The position numbers and the translations under genes are program-made. 64,000 nt of DNA from Octopus vulgaris (Eukaryota), in assembly GCA_951406725.2 (NCBI GenBank), contig OX597814.1, positions 99,882,001 to 99,946,000 on the forward strand, in the 5' to 3' direction. The notes under the pieces were generated by a model that ran no database searches, was not told where the DNA came from, and saw only the letters and a list, made by a program, of their open reading frames with translations. Each line of letters begins with the position of its first letter. Position 1 is the stretch's first letter. This document shows positions 16,584 to 57,894 of the stretch, one piece after another.

Positions 16584-16669
16584 AATATATATATATATAT
16601 ATATAATGAAAGAAGGAAAATGTACTCACTTTAGATAATTTTAATATAATTTTTAGCATAATTTATATG

Positions 16670-16700
16670 GTCGACCGGTTTCGCTTTCGCTAATCATGAC
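16670..16700 (-). ncRNA. Degenerate minimal hammerhead motif
   Basis: GUC-AUGAUUA-GC-GAAA-GC-GAAA-CCG-GUC-GAC: stem I GUC/GAC, GAAA-capped stem II, palindromic ACCGGU. The core has two substitutions. Confidence 0.55.
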
Positions 16701-16845
16701 ATTGAAACTATTGAAGAAGATTTTAGTCCATGTTTAATGAAAGCGAAAGCGGTAGACAAACATGATTTTTGCATTACAACTCACCACATGGAGATAATTG
16801 AAATTTTCCCATTTTGTTACTACTTTATATATGTATATGTGTGTA

Positions 16846-16896
<51 letters not shown>

Positions 16897-17112
16897 TTTT
16901 ATGTGTGTTCTCACTAGCACCGTCTGTCACTATACTTGTTGCGTCTTGGTGTGTGTGTGTGTGTGTGTGTGTAAATGTACCATAATTATCAAATGAGCTA
17001 GTGATTTTGTAACCCCAAGAGGACAATTCCTCTAGCTGGTTAACGATGCACACCTGCATCCTATAGACTACAAGCAGGGGAGCGAACCCCTACCATCTTC
17101 TAGCGACAGGAT

Positions 17113-17159
17113 CAGTAGGCCACCTTGTTTCGGGCTATTTTCTGCCCATCTCAGTACTG
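17113..17159 (-). ncRNA. Degenerate hammerhead within a structured repeat (16995-17185)
   Basis: CAGUA-CUGAGA-U-GGGC-AGAAAAUA-GCCC-GAAAC-AAGGUG-GCC-UACUG; homologous to 50991-51031. Confidence 0.55.
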
Positions 17160-17806
17160 GACACCTCGTCTGCTAGAGATGGCAGTAACTTAACATAATT
17201 ATATAATATACATTATATGAGCGTTGTAAAAATGAAGAAGGGGAAAGGGAGAAAGCGGAAGACTCCTCACATTGCAGTAGGTTTTATAAAACATTTATAA
17301 AGGAACCTACATAACTAGATATTTCCAGGCTGTTTTCCTCTTGAAGATGGGCCCATGAACCTGAACTACTAACGTTTTCTAAAATATAGGTATTGTTAGA
17401 AGTTTTCTATTTTCTCCTTTTAAGTTACATATATATTTTAAAATCTCAGTCTCTACGTGGTTCAGCTTAGTGTTTCTCAGTGCCCGAAGGAGAAATATCG
17501 GGTATGAACCCACCTCAACGTTATTCTCATTTATTCAATTTCTAGCTTTAAGTGGATTTCAAACTAGACAAAGTTAATAAGAAATCACACTATTCATTAA
17601 ATTTTATGTGTGTGTTTGCGCGTGTGTTTGTGTGTGCGTGCGTGCGCGCGCTTGCGAGTGTGTGTGTGTATGTGTGTATGGGGTGAAATACAGGGTGAGA
17701 CAGAAATATAGCAATGAATATCTACACACAAAACATATATATATATATATTTATATATCTATATTTAAGTTCACAATTATAAGCTTATGAGTTTATGAGC
17801 AAACAT

Positions 17807-17886: not shown

Positions 17887-18722
17887 ATATATAACGGGAA
17901 GCTTTATGAAAATAAACAAAAGACGAAGGCAGGTGGAAAACAAACGAACAATTGTATTAGTATGGCGCTCAGGAAATATAAATAAAACAAGTCTTTAACG
18001 TTTCGAGCCTACGCTCTTCAACAGAAAGATACACAGAGAGAGAAAAAACACAGAAAGAAGGAGAGAAAAAAAATGCGTGCAGTAGCTAACGAATCAACAT
18101 GGCGATCTGATTTCGGCCAGAGGTCAAAGATCAAACATGAGACGCGAGAGCGAAATAAGGGGAGATAATAGGGTTGAGGGACCAGCTAATAGTGCGTAGG
18201 AGGGGTCTGGATGTGTGTATGTATAGGGTTGGTGTATGTATTAGTATGTATAAGGGTGTGTGTGTGTGTGTATGAGAGAGTATTAGTGCGTAGGATTGGT
18301 CTGGACGTGCGTATGTATGGGGTTGGTGTATGTATTAGTATGTATTAGTATGTATTAGTACGTATTAGTATGTATAAGTGTGTGTGTGTGTGTATGAGAG
18401 AGTATAAGTGCGTATGCGGGGTCTGGACGTGTGTATGTATAGGGTTGGTGTATGTATTAGTATGTACTAGTATGTATTAGTACGTATTAGTATGTATTAG
18501 TTGGTGTATGTATTAGTATGGCACATCATATGTGATGTGATGTGTAAAGTCATGTGGTGTAGTGAGGAGAAGAGGGGGAGGGGGAGAAGAGGGGGGAGAA
18601 GGGGAAGAAGAGGGGGAGGAGAGGGGGAAGAGGAGAGGATGGGGGATGAAGGAGGAAAGAGGGAGAGGGGGAGAGAGAAGGGGAGAGAGGGAGTGAGGGA
18701 GCAGAGGGAAGGGGAAGAGGGA
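17887..18722 (-). repeat. 3' pseudo-LTR of the PLE
   Basis: Near-identical to 22333-23180. Contains the hammerhead motif, GTATTAGTAT-type internal repeats and a purine-rich tract. Confidence 0.93.
17992..18029 (-). ncRNA. Minimal type I hammerhead ribozyme variant in 3' pLTR
   Basis: Minus strand reads UCUUU-CUGUUGA-A-GAGC-GUAG-GCUC-GAAA-C-GUU-AAAGA: stem I UCUUU/AAAGA, 4-bp stem II, palindromic AACGUU stem III. Confidence 0.75.
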
Positions 18723-18935
18723 GGGAGAAAGAGGGAAGAAGGGAAGGGGAGTAGGGGTAAAAGGATGAAGGACTGAAGAAGTAGGGGTCGGGGGGAAAAG
18801 GGTAGGTGAGGAGTGGGGAGAGGGGGGTTAGATGAGGAGGGGGAGAGTTGAGACCAAATGGCATATAAGAGCGAAGAGAGAAGATTAATTCCTGTTCACG
18901 GCGCAAACGGGAATCCGGATGGCCTCTGTGTAAGG
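18550..18935 (-). pseudogene. C-terminal end of the GIY-YIG domain after a 1-nt frameshift
   Basis: SLHRGHPDSRLRREQELIFSLRSYMPFGLN supplies the conserved Glu and GLN motif of GIY-YIG. It lies in a different frame from the main ORF, shifting near the T-run at ~18935. Confidence 0.8.
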
Positions 18936-21125
18936 AAAACCGAACACAGATAGGTGTTGCAAGGAGTGACCGGTGGAGCGGAAATGGCGTGAGACCGGTG
19001 TGTCGTTCGCAAGGTGGATGTCACGAAGGTGTTCCGCGAACCGGTCAGCCAAGCGGCGTCCCGTTTGTCCGATGTACAAGGAATTGCAGAGAGAGCAAGA
19101 GATGCAATAGATAATATTGCTGGAGGTGCAGGTGAAGGAGTGGATGATGGGATAGGGTCGATGGTGGGTGCTAGTGAGGCGGGTGGTGTTGGAGAGGTAA
19201 GGGCAAGTGCGGCAACGTGGGCGGGAGCAGGGGAACGAGCCGGGTTGGGAGGTAGGGTCAGGGAAGGAGCTATGGACCAAAAGGTCTCGAAGGTTGTGGG
19301 CTCGTTTGAAAGAGGGGAGGGGTCGGTTAGGGAAGAGGTGTGAAGTGGACGGGTCGGACTGGAGATGACGGAAAGCTCGAAGAATGGTGCGTTGGAGACG
19401 TAGGCTCGTGGGGTGGTAAGTGAGGGGAAAATGGAGGCGGGAGACTACAGGGCGGGTTCGGGGAGAGAGAGCAGATACACGGTCCACGGACCGTGCTCTG
19501 GCAAGGGCGGTGTGGATAGTGGTGAGGGTGTATCCACGTAGGGTGAAGTGGTGAGCCATACGTTGAGACTGAGTCTCAAAGTCATGGTCGTCACTACAGA
19601 GCCTACGTAGACGGAGGAATTGGGAATAGGGGATGGAAAGCTTGGTGTGTTCTGGGTGGGAGGAAGAGAAGTTGAGGTATGAGTGTGAGTCTGTGTGTTT
19701 GTAGTGAATGGAGGTGGTAAGAGTGGAGTGAAGAATGCTAACCGAAATGTCGAGGAAGGAGACAGAGGTGTTGGAGATAGTGGAAGTGAAGTGGAGGGCT
19801 GGATGGAAAGATTGGACGAAAGAGAGGAAGGAATCTAGATGTTCGCGGGAGAGTGAGGTGGCACCGATAATGTCGTCAATGTAACGACCATATAGTTCAG
19901 GAGTGGGACCAGTGAAATTAGAGAATATTTGGGCCTCAACATAGCCAACGAACAGGTTCGCATAGTTGGGGCCCATTCGCGTTCCCATGGCCACTCTCGA
20001 GACCTGATGGTAGAACTCGCCTGCGAACGAGAAGCAGTTCAGAGTAAGGACAAGTTCGGCCAGACGAATGAGTGTGGAGGTGTCAGGTACAGGGTTAGAG
20101 CGGAGGTCAAGAAAGTGTCCAAGGGCCTGCAGTCCTTCGTGGTGAGGGATAACAGTATAGAGGCTTTGGATGTCCATAGTAAAAAGGATTTTGGAGGAGC
20201 CGGGAGGAAAGGAGAAAGAGTTGAAAAGCCGGAGAGCATGGTTGGTATCGTGGATGTGGGAGGGAAGAGATGCCACTAGGGGGGCAAGGACACGGTCGAG
20301 GTATTTAGAGATGAGCTCCGTGGGGCAGTTACAGGCGGAGACGATGGGGCGGCCAGGGTTGTTGGGTTTGTGGATTTTGGGGAGGAAGTAAATGGTGGGG
20401 GTACGTGGGGTTCGCACAATTAGGTTGGATGCGGTGCGGGGGAGACGGGAGGACGAGATGAGGTCTTGGACAGTAGAGGATACCGTCTGTTGGTAGCTAC
20501 GTGTGGGGTTAGAGGGCAGAGGGGAATAGAAGGAGGTGTCATTGAGTTGGCGGAAAGCCTCGGCCCTATAGAGGTCCGCGCGCCACACCACTACATCTCC
20601 ACCCCAGTCAGCCGGTTTGATGATAATGTCAGCGCGCCGTTGGAGGGAACGAAGAGCCAAGAGCTCAGCCGGGGAGATGTTGAGGCGGCGTTGGCGCCTG
20701 GAGAAGTTGAACCGTTCCAATGCACGCTGACAAGCGCCCGCGAAAAGATCCACTGCTAGGATCTGGCCAGGGGCAGGCGTCCACGGGGATGGTCGGCGGC
20801 CCAGGCCAGTGAAGCAGTCCTCTTCGTTGGGTGTGGGTGGCGAGTCGTGGTAATGCGCACCCAACCGGACACGGCGCACAAAGCTGTGGACATCAACTCG
20901 CGTCTGGAATTCCTTACAGGATGGAGTGAGGGGGATGAAACGGAGACCCCTACCAAGGACGGAGCATTCAGCCGCAGAGAGGGGAAGATAGGGGGGAATG
21001 GTAACAACAGACGGAAGTGGGGAAGGGGTGGGTGGAATAGAAGTAGGAGGGGTGGTAGGTCTCGTGGAGGTCTGAGGGGGAGGGATTGGGGAGGTGTGTG
21101 GGGGTGGTTGGGCGGGGCAGTAGGG
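18885..21125 (-). CDS. PLE reverse transcriptase + GIY-YIG endonuclease (main frame, frameshifted at both ends)
   Basis: Motifs include LSAAECSVLGRGLRFIP (read upstream of the listed ORF start, same frame, open back to a TAA at 21126-21128), KPADWGG, YFLPKIHK..PGRPIVS, TMDIQSLYT, AMGTRMGPNYANLF, YGRYIDD, SFLDI, the Cys linker CSRPRCRTC and NIIYCISCSLCNSLYIGQT..RFAEH. Confidence 0.93.
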   Translation of the reverse strand, partial: PYCPAQPPPHTSPIPPPQTSTRPTTPPTSIPPTPSPLPSVVTIPPYLPLSAAECSVLGRGLRFIPLTPSCKEFQTRVDVHSFVRRVRLGAHYHDSPPTPNEEDCFTGLGRRPSPWTPAPGQILAVDLFAGACQRALERFNFSRRQRRLNISPAELLALRSLQRRADIIIKPADWGGDVVVWRADLYRAEAFRQLNDTSFYSPLPSNPTRSYQQTVSSTVQDLISSSRLPRTASNLIVRTPRTPTIYFLPKIHKPNNPGRPIVSACNCPTELISKYLDRVLAPLVASLPSHIHDTNHALRLFNSFSFPPGSSKILFTMDIQSLYTVIPHHEGLQALGHFLDLRSNPVPDTSTLIRLAELVLTLNCFSFAGEFYHQVSRVAMGTRMGPNYANLFVGYVEAQIFSNFTGPTPELYGRYIDDIIGATSLSREHLDSFLSFVQSFHPALHFTSTISNTSVSFLDISVSILHSTLTTSIHYKHTDSHSYLNFSSSHPEHTKLSIPYSQFLRLRRLCSDDHDFETQSQRMAHHFTLRGYTLTTIHTALARARSVDRVSALSPRTRPVVSRLHFPLTYHPTSLRLQRTILRAFRHLQSDPSTSHLFPNRPLPSFKRAHNLRDLLVHSSFPDPTSQPGSFPCSRPRCRTCPYLSNTTRLTSTHHRPYPIIHSFTCTSSNIIYCISCSLCNSLYIGQTGRRLADRFAEHLRDIHLANDTPVSRHFRSTGHSLQHLSVFGFPYTEAIRIPVCAVNRN

Positions 21126-21730
21126 TTAGGTGTAGGTGGATGGAGCCTAACGGGAGGGGAGAAGGGGTTGTAGGGAGGGGCAGTGGGGTTAGGTGTGGGT
21201 GGATGGAGCCTATCGGGAGGGGAGAAGGGTGGTGGAGGAGTTGGGGTAGTGGCCTCGGGTAGGGTGGAATGGAAGACTGATTGGAGTTTACGAAGTTTGG
21301 TATCAGAAAGAAATTGATGGAAGAGTTGATTCAAATGGATAATGAAGCGTAGCGTGTTTGGAGCATAAAGAGGCGGCAGAGAGGAGAAGAAGGTGGAGAA
21401 AGCAGGAGGAAGAAGGCGGTTGATGGCATGTAGTTTGGAGAGATTGGAGCGAATGGTGGCCCGCATAAGGCGGTAAAATGTGGTGCGGAGTATGGGTAAG
21501 ATGGAAGAATCCGAGTGGAGAGCAGGGTGGAAGTGGAGGCGGAAACCTTTAGGGATGAGTCGGTGATGTAGGCAGCGGCTTAGGAAAGAGACATGGCTAG
21601 AGAAGCGGGTTTTTTTAAAAAGAAGTAGAGAGAGATTAACGGACGGCTGAAGGCAATATACAGGAAGAGAACGGAGATGATCCTTCAAACGGTGATGGAG
21701 GGTGAGGAGGTAGGACCTAGGATCCGGCAT
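20756..21730 (-). CDS. N-terminal part of the PLE polyprotein (first ATG 21730), out of frame with RT after a Pro-rich linker
   Basis: HVSFLSRCLHHRLIPKGFRL resembles the N-terminal region of PLE ORFs. It is followed by a Pro-rich linker. The last ~80 codons overlap the RT frame, which lies at -1. Confidence 0.75.
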   Translation of the reverse strand: MPDPRSYLLTLHHRLKDHLRSLPVYCLQPSVNLSLLLFKKTRFSSHVSFLSRCLHHRLIPKGFRLHFHPALHSDSSILPILRTTFYRLMRATIRSNLSKLHAINRLLPPAFSTFFSSLPPLYAPNTLRFIIHLNQLFHQFLSDTKLRKLQSVFHSTLPEATTPTPPPPFSPPDRLHPPTPNPTAPPYNPFSPPVRLHPPTPNPTAPPNHPHTPPQSLPLRPPRDLPPLLLLFHPPLPHFRLLLPFPPIFPSLRLNAPSLVGVSVSSPSLHPVRNSRRELMSTALCAVSGWVRITTTRHPHPTKRTASLAWAADHPRGRLPLARS

Positions 21731-22332
21731 GATGGGATAGCGGAAAAAAAACGTTCGAAAAAACAAAAAAAAACAAAAAACAAAAATTATCGTATGAAAA
21801 AAATAGAAAAAAAGGATAGCAAAAAAAGGGGAAAAAACAAACGTTCAAAAAAACAAAAAAATAATAATCCTATGAAAAAACTAGATAAGTAAGCGATAGG
21901 GGCAGAAAAGACGGGGCAAACGGAAAAGGGAAAGAAAGAAGGGAAGCAGAGAGAGGGGGAGGCAAAAAGGGGGGGTGCAGGCAGAGGAAACGGAGTATGG
22001 ACATCCAGAGAGGGAAGAAAGACGGAAAGGAGAACAAAAATTCAGAAAAATGTTGAAAGCATGAAATGAACGTAAAAAAAGTGGTAATATAAGAGAAAAT
22101 AAAAATACAACAAACGGGACAGTTTATGCGAACAAGTTCAAGGTGAGAAATGTGTAGACGTCGTGGTATATTTTTTAAGGATTTCACATCAATGCAAAGT
22201 CACTTTGATCCGCGAAAGAGAGGTGCAGCCAATGGTAAGTATCCAAGAGGTAAAGAAAATCCAAGGTAGAGGTAAGTGTTGATAATGGTATTGGTAGAAT
22301 ATAGGATGAAAGGGAGACCACGTGAGCGCATA

Positions 22333-23180
22333 ATATATAACGGGAAGCTTTATGAAAATAAACAAAAGACGAAGGCAGGTGGAAAACAAACGAACAATTG
22401 TATTAGTATGGCGCTCAGGAAATATAAATAAAACAAGTCTTTAACGTTTCGAGCCTACGCTCTTCAACAGAAAGATACGCAGAGAGAAAAAAACACAGAA
22501 AGAAGGAGAGAAAAAAAATGCGTGCAGTAGCTAACGAATCAACATGGCGATCTGATTTCGGCCAGAGGTCAAAGATCAAACATGAGACGCGAGAGCGAAA
22601 TAAGGGGAGATAATAGGGTTGAGGGACCAGCTAATAGTGCGTAGGAGGGGTCTGGATGTGTGTATGTATAGGGTTGGTGTATGTATTAGTATGTATAAGG
22701 GTGTGTGTGTGTGTGTGTGTGTATGAGAGAGTATTAGTGCGTAGGATTGGTCTGGACGTGCGTATGTATGGGGTTGGTGTATGTATTAGTATGTATTAGT
22801 ATGTATTAGTACGTATTAGTATGTATAAGTGTGTGTGTGTGTGTATGAGAGAGTATAAGTGCGTATGCGGGGTCTGGACGTGTGTATGTATAGGGTTGGT
22901 GTATGTATTAGTATGTACTAGTATGTATTAGTACGTATTAGTATGTATTAGTTGGTGTATGTATTAGTATGGCACATCATATGTGATGTGATGTGTAAAG
23001 TCATGTGGTGTAGTGAGGAGAAGAGGGGAGGGGGAAGGGAGAGAGGGGGAGAAGGGGAGGGGAAGAAGAGGGGGAGGAGAGGGGGAAGAGGAGAGGATGG
23101 GGGATGAAGGAGGAAAGAGGGAGAGGGGGAGAGAGAAGGGGAGAGAGGGAGTGAGGGAGCAGAGGGAAGGGGAAGAGGGA
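22333..23180 (-). repeat. 5' pseudo-LTR (5'-truncated tandem copy) of the PLE
   Basis: Direct repeat of 17887-18722, differing mainly in homopolymer/microsatellite lengths and a few substitutions. Confidence 0.93.
22438..22475 (-). ncRNA. Minimal type I hammerhead ribozyme variant in 5' pLTR
   Basis: Identical motif to 17992-18029. Confidence 0.75.
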
Positions 23181-50868: not shown

Positions 50869-50943
<75 letters not shown>

Positions 50944-50990
50944 CTAGCAAGGGAGTGACCCCCACACTCCCCCAGCAGAAGAGTTGATCA

Positions 50991-51031
50991 CGAGATTCCG
51001 TTTCGAGCTAGTTTGCTTATCCTCAGTCCCG
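50991..51031 (-). ncRNA. Degenerate hammerhead within a structured repeat (50936-51083)
   Basis: CGGGA-CUGAGGA-U-AAGC-AAACUA-GCUC-GAAAC-GGAA-UCUCG; homologous to 17113-17159. Confidence 0.55.
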
Positions 51032-51322
51032 AACACCAGGCCGCACGAGAGATGGCCAGAGTTCGCTCCAGCTAGCAATATATTATAAACAAAGCGACCA
51101 CTGGTCACTGAATTGCAACAAGCAAAGTAGCTAGTTGTAAACGCTTCATAAGAGATGAGATTAGTAACTATACTAACAAGGAAAGTTAATCATAAAAGAT
51201 ATCATAGCTCTTCAGTGAGAGTATATGAGACAAATTAGGAAAAGGAAACCGATAGGAATGTTAAGAAGCGCTTCTGAGGGCAATTAATCCTTTCAGAGAA
51301 TTTATGTTCTCTCTCTCTCTCC

Positions 51323-56870: not shown

Positions 56871-57894
56871 ATAGCCGAAAAATTTAGCAGAACTGCACAA
56901 AACATTTAGCAGAACTGTCAGATTTTCAAAGAAGTCGTATTGTTGGACAATCTGAGGCTCGTCTTAGACAGCGAAAAATTGCCGAAAATCTTCAAATTCC
57001 TCTTGCTACTGTTAATAGAATTATTGTGCATTTCAAAAGCCAAGGAAAAGAATCAACAGATTCTCGTCCCGGTCGACCTGGGCTCGTAGAAAGGAAGCTT
57101 CACTGTTTGAAGAGAATTGTGGAAAACAAACCCCGTTCGAAAGTTTCTGACATTGCAAAACAGCAAAAAGTTACTCCAAGAACGTGTGTTACATATCTGC
57201 ATAAGCTTGGGTATTATGAACATTGCGTTAGAAGAAAACCTCTCCTTCAACTAATTAAGATCATGAAAAAGAGAAATGCGCTAAGGAGATGTCAGAGAAA
57301 TCCAGTTCATTTTGGGATAGAGAGATTTTCGCAGATGAATCCAGATTTGCATTATTTTCAGACAGTACACGTGTTTGGGTATGAGGGTTGCCCAATCAAG
57401 AATTTGATTTGAAACGACTCCAACTAACTGTGAAACATGGCGGTATCTCTGTAATGGTATGGGGAGCTGTCACCAGCAATGGTCGTTCTGAGCTGATCGA
57501 ATGTGTTGGAACCATAAACTCTGAAAAATGCATCGAAATACATAAGCAAGGACTACGTCCAATGTATTCACATAATAACATAACGAAAAATGTTTTTTTA
57601 TTCATGGAAGATGGGGCTCCATGCCACACAGCGAAAAGGAATCAATAATGGCTGACTGAAAATGGGATCAAAAAACTTCCTTGGCCGAGCCAATCTCCTG
57701 GCATGAATCCAATTGAAAATCTTGGAACGTACGAAAAACTCGACAGAAACCTAAAACTAAAGATGAAATGTTTCGATTGTTGCGTGAAAAGTGGGCAGAA
57801 ATTTCACAAGAGACAATCACAAAGCTCATCAGTTCAATGCCAAAAAGAGTTTCTGAATTAAAATCTGTAAAGGGAATGTCAACTAAATACTTAA
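56871..57894 (+). pseudogene. Tc1-family (DD34E) transposase pseudogene
   Basis: [70 protein letters not shown] and SMPKRV..TKY; frameshifts and stops. TIRs not resolved. Confidence 0.9.

What the first reader, a model, noticed from the sequence alone, without database searches (positions are those of the whole stretch)
16995..17185. Compact multi-hairpin RNA element with a hammerhead core, covarying with a homolog 34 kb away
Seen: consecutive hairpins AGAGGA/TCCTCT (17018-17033), GATGCA/TGCATC (17045-17060) and GGGG/CCCC (17077-17090). A long stem TACCATCTTCTAGC/GCTAGAGATGGCA encloses a hammerhead-like core. It aligns with 50945-51060 (AGCA.GGGAG.GA.CCCC, GATCA, GTTTCG.GCTA, TCAGT, ACACC, AGAGATGGC). 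The stems differ in sequence but largely keep pairing: stem I CAGUA/UACUG vs CGGGA/UCUCG, stem II GGGC/GCCC vs AAGC/GCUC. Inference: a non-coding, highly structured mobile RNA family resembling a non-LTR retrozyme, possibly spreading via circular RNA and a PLE RT.
Basis: partly seen in the sequence, partly recalled or inferred. Interest (0 to 1): 0.75.

Follow-up and report, generated by a model that had tools for sequence, protein, structure and literature searches.

The report
Decayed copies of a hammerhead retrozyme
Both stretches are broken, decayed pieces of a repeated, roughly 359-base non-coding element whose better-preserved relatives carry a complete self-cutting "hammerhead" RNA motif, and whose insertions look as if a Penelope-type transposon enzyme likely copied them from a probably circular RNA; this kind of element is already known from mussels, corals and amphibians.

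Summary
The hairpins and the distant homolog are real. Both are fragments of a dispersed repeat family of 356-359-nt monomers in a 2.8-Gb animal genome (octopus-like, inferred). 17003-17190 is subfamily A and 50931-51192 is subfamily B (66% identical monomers); the RNA sense is the minus strand. Copies are circularly permuted, often longer than one unit and not attached to a PLE reading frame. They show Penelope-type footprints: head-to-head inverted arms and two fixed 3' ends, often in microsatellites. A young relative (subfamily C, 359 nt, arrays 99-100% identical) shows this cleanly: 21 of 25 head-to-head junctions pair one end site with the other. Verdict: new member of the known non-LTR retrozymes. 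Cleavage and circular RNA are untested. This scan already noted the same kind of element and footprint on other DNA, in this genome and others.

The parts
17003..17190 (-). Subfamily A retrozyme fragment: monomer positions 286 to 359, then 1 to 115 (position 1 follows the hammerhead cut site), 90% identical to the A consensus
17112..17160 (-). Degenerate type I hammerhead of copy 1: stem I 17155-17160 with 17112-17117; core 17149-17154 lacks one base of CUGANGA; stem II 17144-17147 with 17132-17135; GAAA 17128-17131; position 16.1 is C and stem III is mispaired; predicted inactive
17091..17184 (-). Stem enclosing the hammerhead (17091-17104 with 17172-17184); its outer 7 pairs are kept in both subfamilies
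17018..17090 (-). Three hairpins (17018-17033, 17045-17060, 17077-17090) downstream of the cut site; the first two have compensatory changes between A and B (2 pairs and 1 pair), the GGGG/CCCC one has none
16949..16972 (.). (GT)n microsatellite about 30 nt beyond the alignable 3' end of copy 1; possibly the insertion target, but the 30 nt between align poorly
50931..51192 (-). Subfamily B retrozyme fragment: monomer positions 154 to 356, then 1 to 64, 86% identical to the B consensus
50988..51032 (-). Degenerate hammerhead of copy 2: CUGANGA intact, 4-nt deletion in stem III; stem I 51027-51032 with 50988-50993; predicted inactive
50872..50941 (.). (AT)35 microsatellite into which the 3' end of copy 2 runs

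Best explanation
The two stretches are decayed fragments, with broken hammerheads, of a dispersed family of 356-359-nt non-coding repeats that is most likely a non-LTR retrozyme, likely written into microsatellites by a borrowed Penelope-type reverse transcriptase/endonuclease from a probably circular RNA. Shown: monomer length, circular permutation, intact type I hammerhead in relatives, short tandems, head-to-head arms, two fixed 3' end sites, frequent microsatellite flanks, no reading frame. Inferred steps: (1) a tandem copy is transcribed; (2) hammerheads cut out a monomer, possibly as dimers because stem III is short and near-palindromic; (3) a host ligase closes it (by analogy with PMC7229834); (4) a PLE protein nicks both strands of AT-rich DNA and primes reverse transcription at two internal sites about 45-60 nt apart, one per strand, reading through the ribozyme junction for up to 5.7 units; (5) the two cDNAs are joined 5' to 5'. 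Subfamilies A and B spread long ago and are decaying; subfamily C is recent.
For: At least 40 loci each for A and B at 75-86% identity; only 40 candidates are scored per search, out of 1406, 360 and 1747. Monomers 359 and 356 nt, 47% GC, 66% identical, longest ATG frame 43 and 37 aa; circular folds z -11.5 and -10.0 against 40 shuffles. Catalytic core intact in 12 of 30 A and 8 of 19 B copies aligned. Of 43 pairs, 16 differ in majority letters between A and B; 15 keep pairing, 11 by change on both sides (stem I 4 of 6, stem II 1 of 3, stem III 3 of 5); 88.5% of cells pair against 31-50% when slid. In 80 A/B loci, 50 of 124 segments exceed one unit; all 27 adjacent inverted pairs are head-to-head; 76 of 124 3' ends fall in two windows covering 12% of the monomer. 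Subfamily C, found in a 400-kb blind sample, is homologous outside the hammerhead (z 5.2 and 4.4, 0 of 200 shuffles). In 40 C loci, 65 of 71 arms end at two sites, 51 of those 65 in a microsatellite, none at the cut site although the query ended there, and 21 of 25 head-to-head junctions join one arm ending at site 1 with one ending at site 2. A purified PLE cuts and extends both strands of AT-rich DNA and starts at two internal sites that bound the genomic 'tail' (PMC11167929, parts 1-2 of 4 read). Inverted 5' copies, a one-sided tail and (TA)n targets are described for PLEs (10.1101/2021.04.23.441226, section 6 and passages). A young RT plus GIY-YIG PLE family, at least 71 copies at 97-100% protein identity, ends in (TA)n in this genome.
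Against: No cleavage or circular RNA is shown; the two window copies are predicted inactive. Read-through of an uncut tandem transcript would give the same junction-spanning copies, and in the PLE assay unprocessed RNA was the dominant substrate. The covariation rests on essentially one A-versus-B divergence, on a structure I derived from these sequences; counted by pairs it does not exceed shuffles (20 against 18.0 +/- 2.0, 116 of 500). A/B end statistics are biased because the queries favoured copies spanning the hammerhead, and only 8 of 27 A/B head-to-head pairs join site 1 with site 2. A/B arrays reach only 2.2 units in the stretches held. The resident young PLE shares no significant sequence with the monomers (best E 0.89), and none of 20 of its copies showed an inverted arm within the 10 kb held, so the actual partner enzyme is not identified. 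A-C and B-C similarity is distant.
Confidence: 0.85

Rival explanations
1. The monomers are pseudo-LTRs, or 5'-truncated ends, of an autonomous Penelope-like family that was not sampled.
For: PLE pLTRs carry type I hammerheads and give the same inverted and tail footprints. In Xenopus, 24 of 57 retrozyme families matched Repbase elements, 21 of the 22 being PLEs, at their ends (10.64898/2026.07.22.740005, parts 1-3 of 5 read).
Against: Upstream of a monomer the copies continue round into the same monomer, not into a shared body. tblastn with the window PLE protein hit 2 of 80 A/B loci and 1 of 40 C loci, at 27-41% identity; none has the monomer downstream of an endonuclease end, and the one I read (L217) is separated from the arm by (TA)n tracts. 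0 of 30 PLE loci held A or B sequence. Only one PLE family served as query, and A/B flanks were 1.5 kb.
Confidence: 0.08
2. Same family and same PLE enzyme, but the template is a linear, uncut multimeric transcript; the ribozyme and circles are not part of the mobile step.
For: Hammerhead mutants did not affect PLE insertion in vitro; 8 of 9 Xenopus retrozyme dimers did not cleave; units within one C array differ (12 variable columns among 5 units in L121), which a single monomer circle does not simply explain.
Against: Hammerhead stems covary between subfamilies, so the fold was kept. Arms of 3.9-5.7 units occur and would need equally long source arrays. Circles are the main RNA form in mussel, coral and axolotl (PMC7229834). 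This rival is a variant within the best explanation, not exclusive of it.
Confidence: 0.25
3. A non-autonomous DNA element (MITE or Helitron-type) or a satellite spread by DNA-level mechanisms, with hairpins as terminal structures.
For: Copy 2 shows a 9-bp inverted repeat beside a TA run; copies often abut (TA)n.
Against: That inverted repeat is internal to the monomer. 5' ends are scattered and copies are permuted. All 27 inverted A/B junctions have one polarity. A hammerhead covaries on one strand.
Confidence: 0.03
4. A host-conserved functional RNA at this locus.
For: The stretch folds better than most shuffles.
Against: It is 10% diverged from the family consensus, truncated, with lesions in the catalytic core, like other decayed copies.
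Confidence: 0.03

Closest known systems
Metazoan non-LTR retrozymes (Cervera and de la Pena 2020, PMC7229834; abstract and parts 2-4 of 6 of the main section read; supplement could not be read)
   Same: Type I hammerhead in short repeats, under 50% GC, no LTR or coding frame, highly self-paired predicted circle; mussel repeats are 350-390 bp, axolotl 330 and 350 bp with short stem III working as dimers; PLEs proposed as the mobiliser.
   Different: RNA and cleavage were shown there, not here. The parts read do not describe head-to-head arms or two fixed ends. A and B are mostly decayed monomers to dimers.
Vertebrate non-LTR retrozymes as PLE derivatives (Li, Clavereau, Pollet 2026, 10.64898/2026.07.22.740005; parts 1-3 of 5 read; supplements closed)
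   Same: Dispersed monomers plus tandem copies, co-occurrence with PLEs.
   Different: No mollusc among its 35 genomes as listed. Their link to PLEs is pLTR sequence similarity, which I did not find for the one PLE family tested; the link here is the insertion footprint.
Penelope-like elements: Poseidon of Anolis (Frangieh et al. 2024, PMC11167929, parts 1-2 of 4 read) and the PLE structure summary (Craig et al. 2021, section 6 and passages read)
   Same: Two internal reverse-transcription starts, AT-rich or (TA)n targets, both strands extended, inverted 5'-truncated arm, one-sided tail.
   Different: No RT/endonuclease frame; the end-to-end distance is about 45-60 nt rather than 30-40; the whole element is a 359-nt permuted unit.

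Membership tests
non-LTR retrozyme | Type I hammerhead with full catalytic core (family level) | tested here: met
   Core intact in 12 of 30 A and 8 of 19 B copies; 7 identical motifs in the C array L121
non-LTR retrozyme | Intact hammerhead in the two window copies | tested here: not met
   Copy 1 lacks a core base and U16.1; copy 2 lacks 4 nt of stem III. They are decayed members.
non-LTR retrozyme | Monomer of 150-450 bp, under 50% GC, non-coding, no LTR structure | tested here: met
   359, 356, 359 nt; GC 0.47, 0.47, 0.49; longest ATG frame 30-43 aa; permuted ends
non-LTR retrozyme | Tandem copies | tested here: met
   A/B: 50 of 124 segments over one unit, up to 2.2 units; C: 50 of 71 arms, up to 5.7 units
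non-LTR retrozyme | Highly self-paired predicted circle | tested here: met
   70% paired; z -11.5 (A) and -10.0 (B) on consensus monomers against 40 shuffles
non-LTR retrozyme | Expressed as linear and circular monomer RNA | tested here: inconclusive
   Only assembled contigs of runs guessed to be RNA were available; they cannot show circles or levels
non-LTR retrozyme | Self-cleavage in vitro | not testable with these tools
   Needs a transcription assay
non-LTR retrozyme | Target-site duplications | not tested
   Microsatellite flanks make them unreadable by eye; no test was run
PLE pseudo-LTR | Continuous with an RT plus GIY-YIG reading frame | tested here: not met
   2 of 80 A/B and 1 of 40 C loci have a PLE protein hit nearby, none placed as a pLTR; one PLE family used as query
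PLE-mobilised element | Inverted 5'-truncated arm at the 5' end | tested here: met
   27 of 27 adjacent inverted pairs in A/B and 25 of 26 in C are head-to-head
PLE-mobilised element | Two internal 3' end sites (tail on one end) and AT-rich or microsatellite targets | tested here: met
   C: 65 of 71 arms at two sites, 51 of the 65 in microsatellites; A/B: 76 of 124, 38 of the 76 in microsatellites
PLE-mobilised element | Sequence shared with a resident PLE terminus | tested here: not met
   No significant match of A or B to the window PLE; other PLE families not compared

The most novel reading that the evidence does not exclude
One old lineage of 356-359-nt octopus retrozymes (A and B decayed, C recently active) has kept the same two internal priming sites through deep sequence divergence, and each two-armed insertion is made by a Penelope-type enzyme copying one RNA circle from both nicked strands, site 1 on one strand and site 2 on the other. 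That would be genomic evidence for the long-proposed PLE-plus-circle route and would define the RNA signal a PLE needs in trans.
Probability: 0.55. Interest if true: 0.55.

Novelty: new member of a known kind. Interest (0 to 1): 0.3.

Why it matters
The two copies themselves are ordinary decayed repeats. The family matters modestly. Which enzyme mobilises animal retrozymes is proposed but not shown in the papers read, and these insertions carry the footprint predicted by the one PLE studied in vitro. The young subfamily C gives a ready substrate with two mapped start sites for a direct assay. Four paper searches listed no paper describing a cephalopod retrozyme, but the supplement of PMC7229834 could not be read and may list one, and this scan has already noted the same kind and footprint many times.

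Tried and rejected
Rfam: only microsatellite/miRNA noise among the 150 rows shown of 334 for the window; 0 at gathering score in 7 family loci. Expression: no RNA holder listed for an A dimer. Contigs of runs guessed to be RNA cover the A dimer in 22-26 of 30 bins in 4 runs and the C stretch in 30, 22, 5 and 5 of 30 bins; in run X1 the C contigs are deep and 1% run on into other sequence. The run type is not on record, no silent stretch was laid and contigs cannot show circles, so none of this is counted as evidence. snRNA-type promoter, a lead from earlier notes: U1 and U2 genes here share a motif at -57 to -61 (11 of 12 U2 and 10 of 10 U1 loci by eye). A matrix from 12 of those loci picks the homologous site about 110-120 nt before the cut site in A and C, but not above chance (36 and 24 of 300 shuffles), misses it in B (157 of 300), and scores unrelated antisense sites higher in A and B (1 and 8 of 300): inconclusive. 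Neighbouring PLE as parent: no significant similarity; no inverted arm seen in 20 copies. Copy number: 1 B and 0 A insertions in a 400-kb blind sample gives about 7,000 for A plus B with a 95% range of 180-39,000; 2 more loci held A/B sequence in 567 kb of flanks fetched for other purposes; too rough to rely on. MITE reading of copy 2 rejected. Rows dropped: 11 of 60 loci were left out of alignment A1 (9 covering under 90% of the region, including window copy 2, and 2 with large indels); 10 duplicate loci were removed before the 80-locus counts. The sequence look-up in earlier findings returned nothing for this copy.

Full report
Observation. The three hairpins and the enclosing stem are at the stated coordinates. 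The stretch at 50945-51066 is homologous: score 50 against 2.9 +/- 7.3, 0 of 500 shuffles as high. The hammerhead reads on the minus strand. Folding of the 191 nt is only moderately better than shuffles (z -1.95 minus, -3.2 plus). Rfam gives no hammerhead match. The window lies in a 2.8-Gb, 227-contig, microsatellite-rich genome; that it is an octopus is my inference.

What it is. Searching the genome with each stretch returned 40 loci each at 75-86% identity; only 40 of 1406 and 360 candidates are scored. Aligning 30 loci of each with flanks showed that the shared sequence wraps round on itself with periods of 359 nt (subfamily A) and 356 nt (subfamily B). The monomers are 66% identical, 47% GC, without a reading frame over 43 aa, and fold as circles with z -11.5 and -10.0 against 40 shuffles. 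With position 1 set after the hammerhead cut site, window copy 1 is A positions 286 to 115 (189 nt, 90% identical) and copy 2 is B positions 154 to 64 (267 nt, 86%). So the finding is about half of a monomer.

The ribozyme. The family has a canonical type I hammerhead: 6-bp stem I, CUGANGA, stem II, GAAA, a near-palindromic stem III with a 1-2 nt centre, and GUC. The core is intact in 12 of 30 A and 8 of 19 B copies aligned (49 of 60 loci entered the alignment). Of 43 pairs, 16 differ in majority letters between A and B; 15 keep pairing, 11 through change on both sides, 8 of them in hammerhead stems. Cells pair at 88.5% against 31-50% for slid controls, but by pair count the structure does not beat shuffles (20 against 18.0 +/- 2.0; 116 of 500). 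The signal is essentially one divergence between two master sequences, on a structure derived from them.

Insertion anatomy. In 80 distinct A/B loci, 50 of 124 segments exceed one unit (up to 2.2), all 27 adjacent inverted pairs are head-to-head, and 76 of 124 3' ends fall in two windows (about 158-176 and 213-236) that cover 12% of the monomer; 38 of those 76 run into a microsatellite (first seen as 19 of 19 pairs in 60 loci). These counts are biased, since the queries favoured copies spanning the hammerhead, and only 8 of the 27 pairs join site 1 with site 2.

A young relative. A blind sample of 40 stretches (400 kb) held one B copy and one array of a third subfamily, C, with 7 identical intact hammerheads. 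Its unit is 359 nt, four full units differ by 0-4 bases and a fifth carries a 6-nt deletion, and the array has two head-to-head arms inside (TA)n. C is distantly homologous to A and B even without the hammerhead (z 5.2 and 4.4, 0 of 200 shuffles), and its first end site follows the same hairpin as in A and B. In 40 C loci at 90-100% identity, 65 of 71 arms end at about 181 or 222-228, 51 of the 65 in a microsatellite, and none at the cut site although the query ended there. Arms reach 5.7 units. Of 26 inverted junctions 25 are head-to-head, and 21 of these join a site-1 arm with a site-2 arm.

Mechanism. A purified Anolis PLE cuts and extends both strands of AT-rich DNA and starts reverse transcription at two internal sites that bound the genomic tail (PMC11167929, parts 1-2 of 4). 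Inverted 5' copies, a one-sided 30-40 bp tail and (TA)n targets are described for PLEs (10.1101/2021.04.23.441226, section 6). The footprints here match, so a PLE enzyme acting in trans is the likely mobiliser. Copies that read through the ribozyme junction for several units fit a circular template, as proposed for retrozymes (PMC7229834), but an uncut multimeric transcript would fit too, and the units of one C array are not all identical. Transcription, cleavage, ligation and the enzyme's identity are inferred.

Is it a pLTR? A young PLE lies 700 bp away (17894 to about 23180, minus strand; RT and a weak GIY-YIG match), with at least 71 copies at 97-100% identity that end in (TA)n. It shares no significant sequence with A or B (best E 0.89), and none of 30 of its loci held them. 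Its protein finds distant hits near 2 of 80 A/B and 1 of 40 C loci, none placed as a pLTR. None of 20 of its copies showed an inverted arm in the 10 kb held, so it is a candidate partner only. Other PLE families were not compared.

RNA data and promoter. No run on record as RNA holds the sequence, and the contig lay-overs cannot show circles. A test for an snRNA-type promoter was inconclusive.

Comparison and novelty. The family meets the sequence-level features of metazoan non-LTR retrozymes; mussel repeats have the same size range (PMC7229834). A 2026 preprint ties vertebrate retrozymes to PLE pLTRs. Searches for retrozyme or hammerhead with octopus or cephalopod listed no paper on such a family (listings only, apart from the papers named); the unread supplement of PMC7229834 and the closed supplements of the preprints may bear on this. 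Earlier notes of this scan report retrozymes with two-armed insertions and fixed ends in this genome and others (25 findings by words; 243 notes in this genome fit 'retrozyme hammerhead'). I had reached the reading before opening them, and they are not independent support.

Verdict. Real feature, right family-level guess, new member of a known kind; the flagged copies are decayed. Interest 0.3.

Noticed in passing
window 17894-23180, minus strand: Young Penelope-like element with pseudo-LTRs, an RT plus GIY-YIG frame (18885-21125) with a CxxxxCxxC linker of the kind described for Neptune/Nematis, inserted in (TA)n; at least 71 near-identical copies. Its pLTR holds a minimal hammerhead-like motif near 17995-18025 with U at core position 3 (read by eye).
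   Followed up: partly
window 16669-16702, minus strand: Minimal hammerhead-like motif with a degenerate core and palindromic stem III, unrelated to A or B; a similar motif lies in L217 near a distant PLE fragment, so probably a pLTR remnant of another PLE family.
   Followed up: no
L121:2097-4768 (G000:C1:20002097-20004768): Young two-armed array of subfamily C. A 3-nt variant alternates among units of one arm, which suggests more than one template or a dimeric template.
   Followed up: partly
window 17894 and L121:2097: The 3' junction of the young PLE and end site 1 of subfamily C read alike over about a dozen bases (a CCCG run followed by TT and AT repeats); possible mimicry of the priming signal, not tested statistically.
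   Followed up: no
window 56888-57412: Tc1/mariner-type transposase fragment (helix-turn-helix families).
   Followed up: no
L250-L271: U1 and U2 snRNA genes share a short upstream motif at -57 to -61, a likely proximal sequence element of this animal; most top U6 hits lack it.
   Followed up: partly
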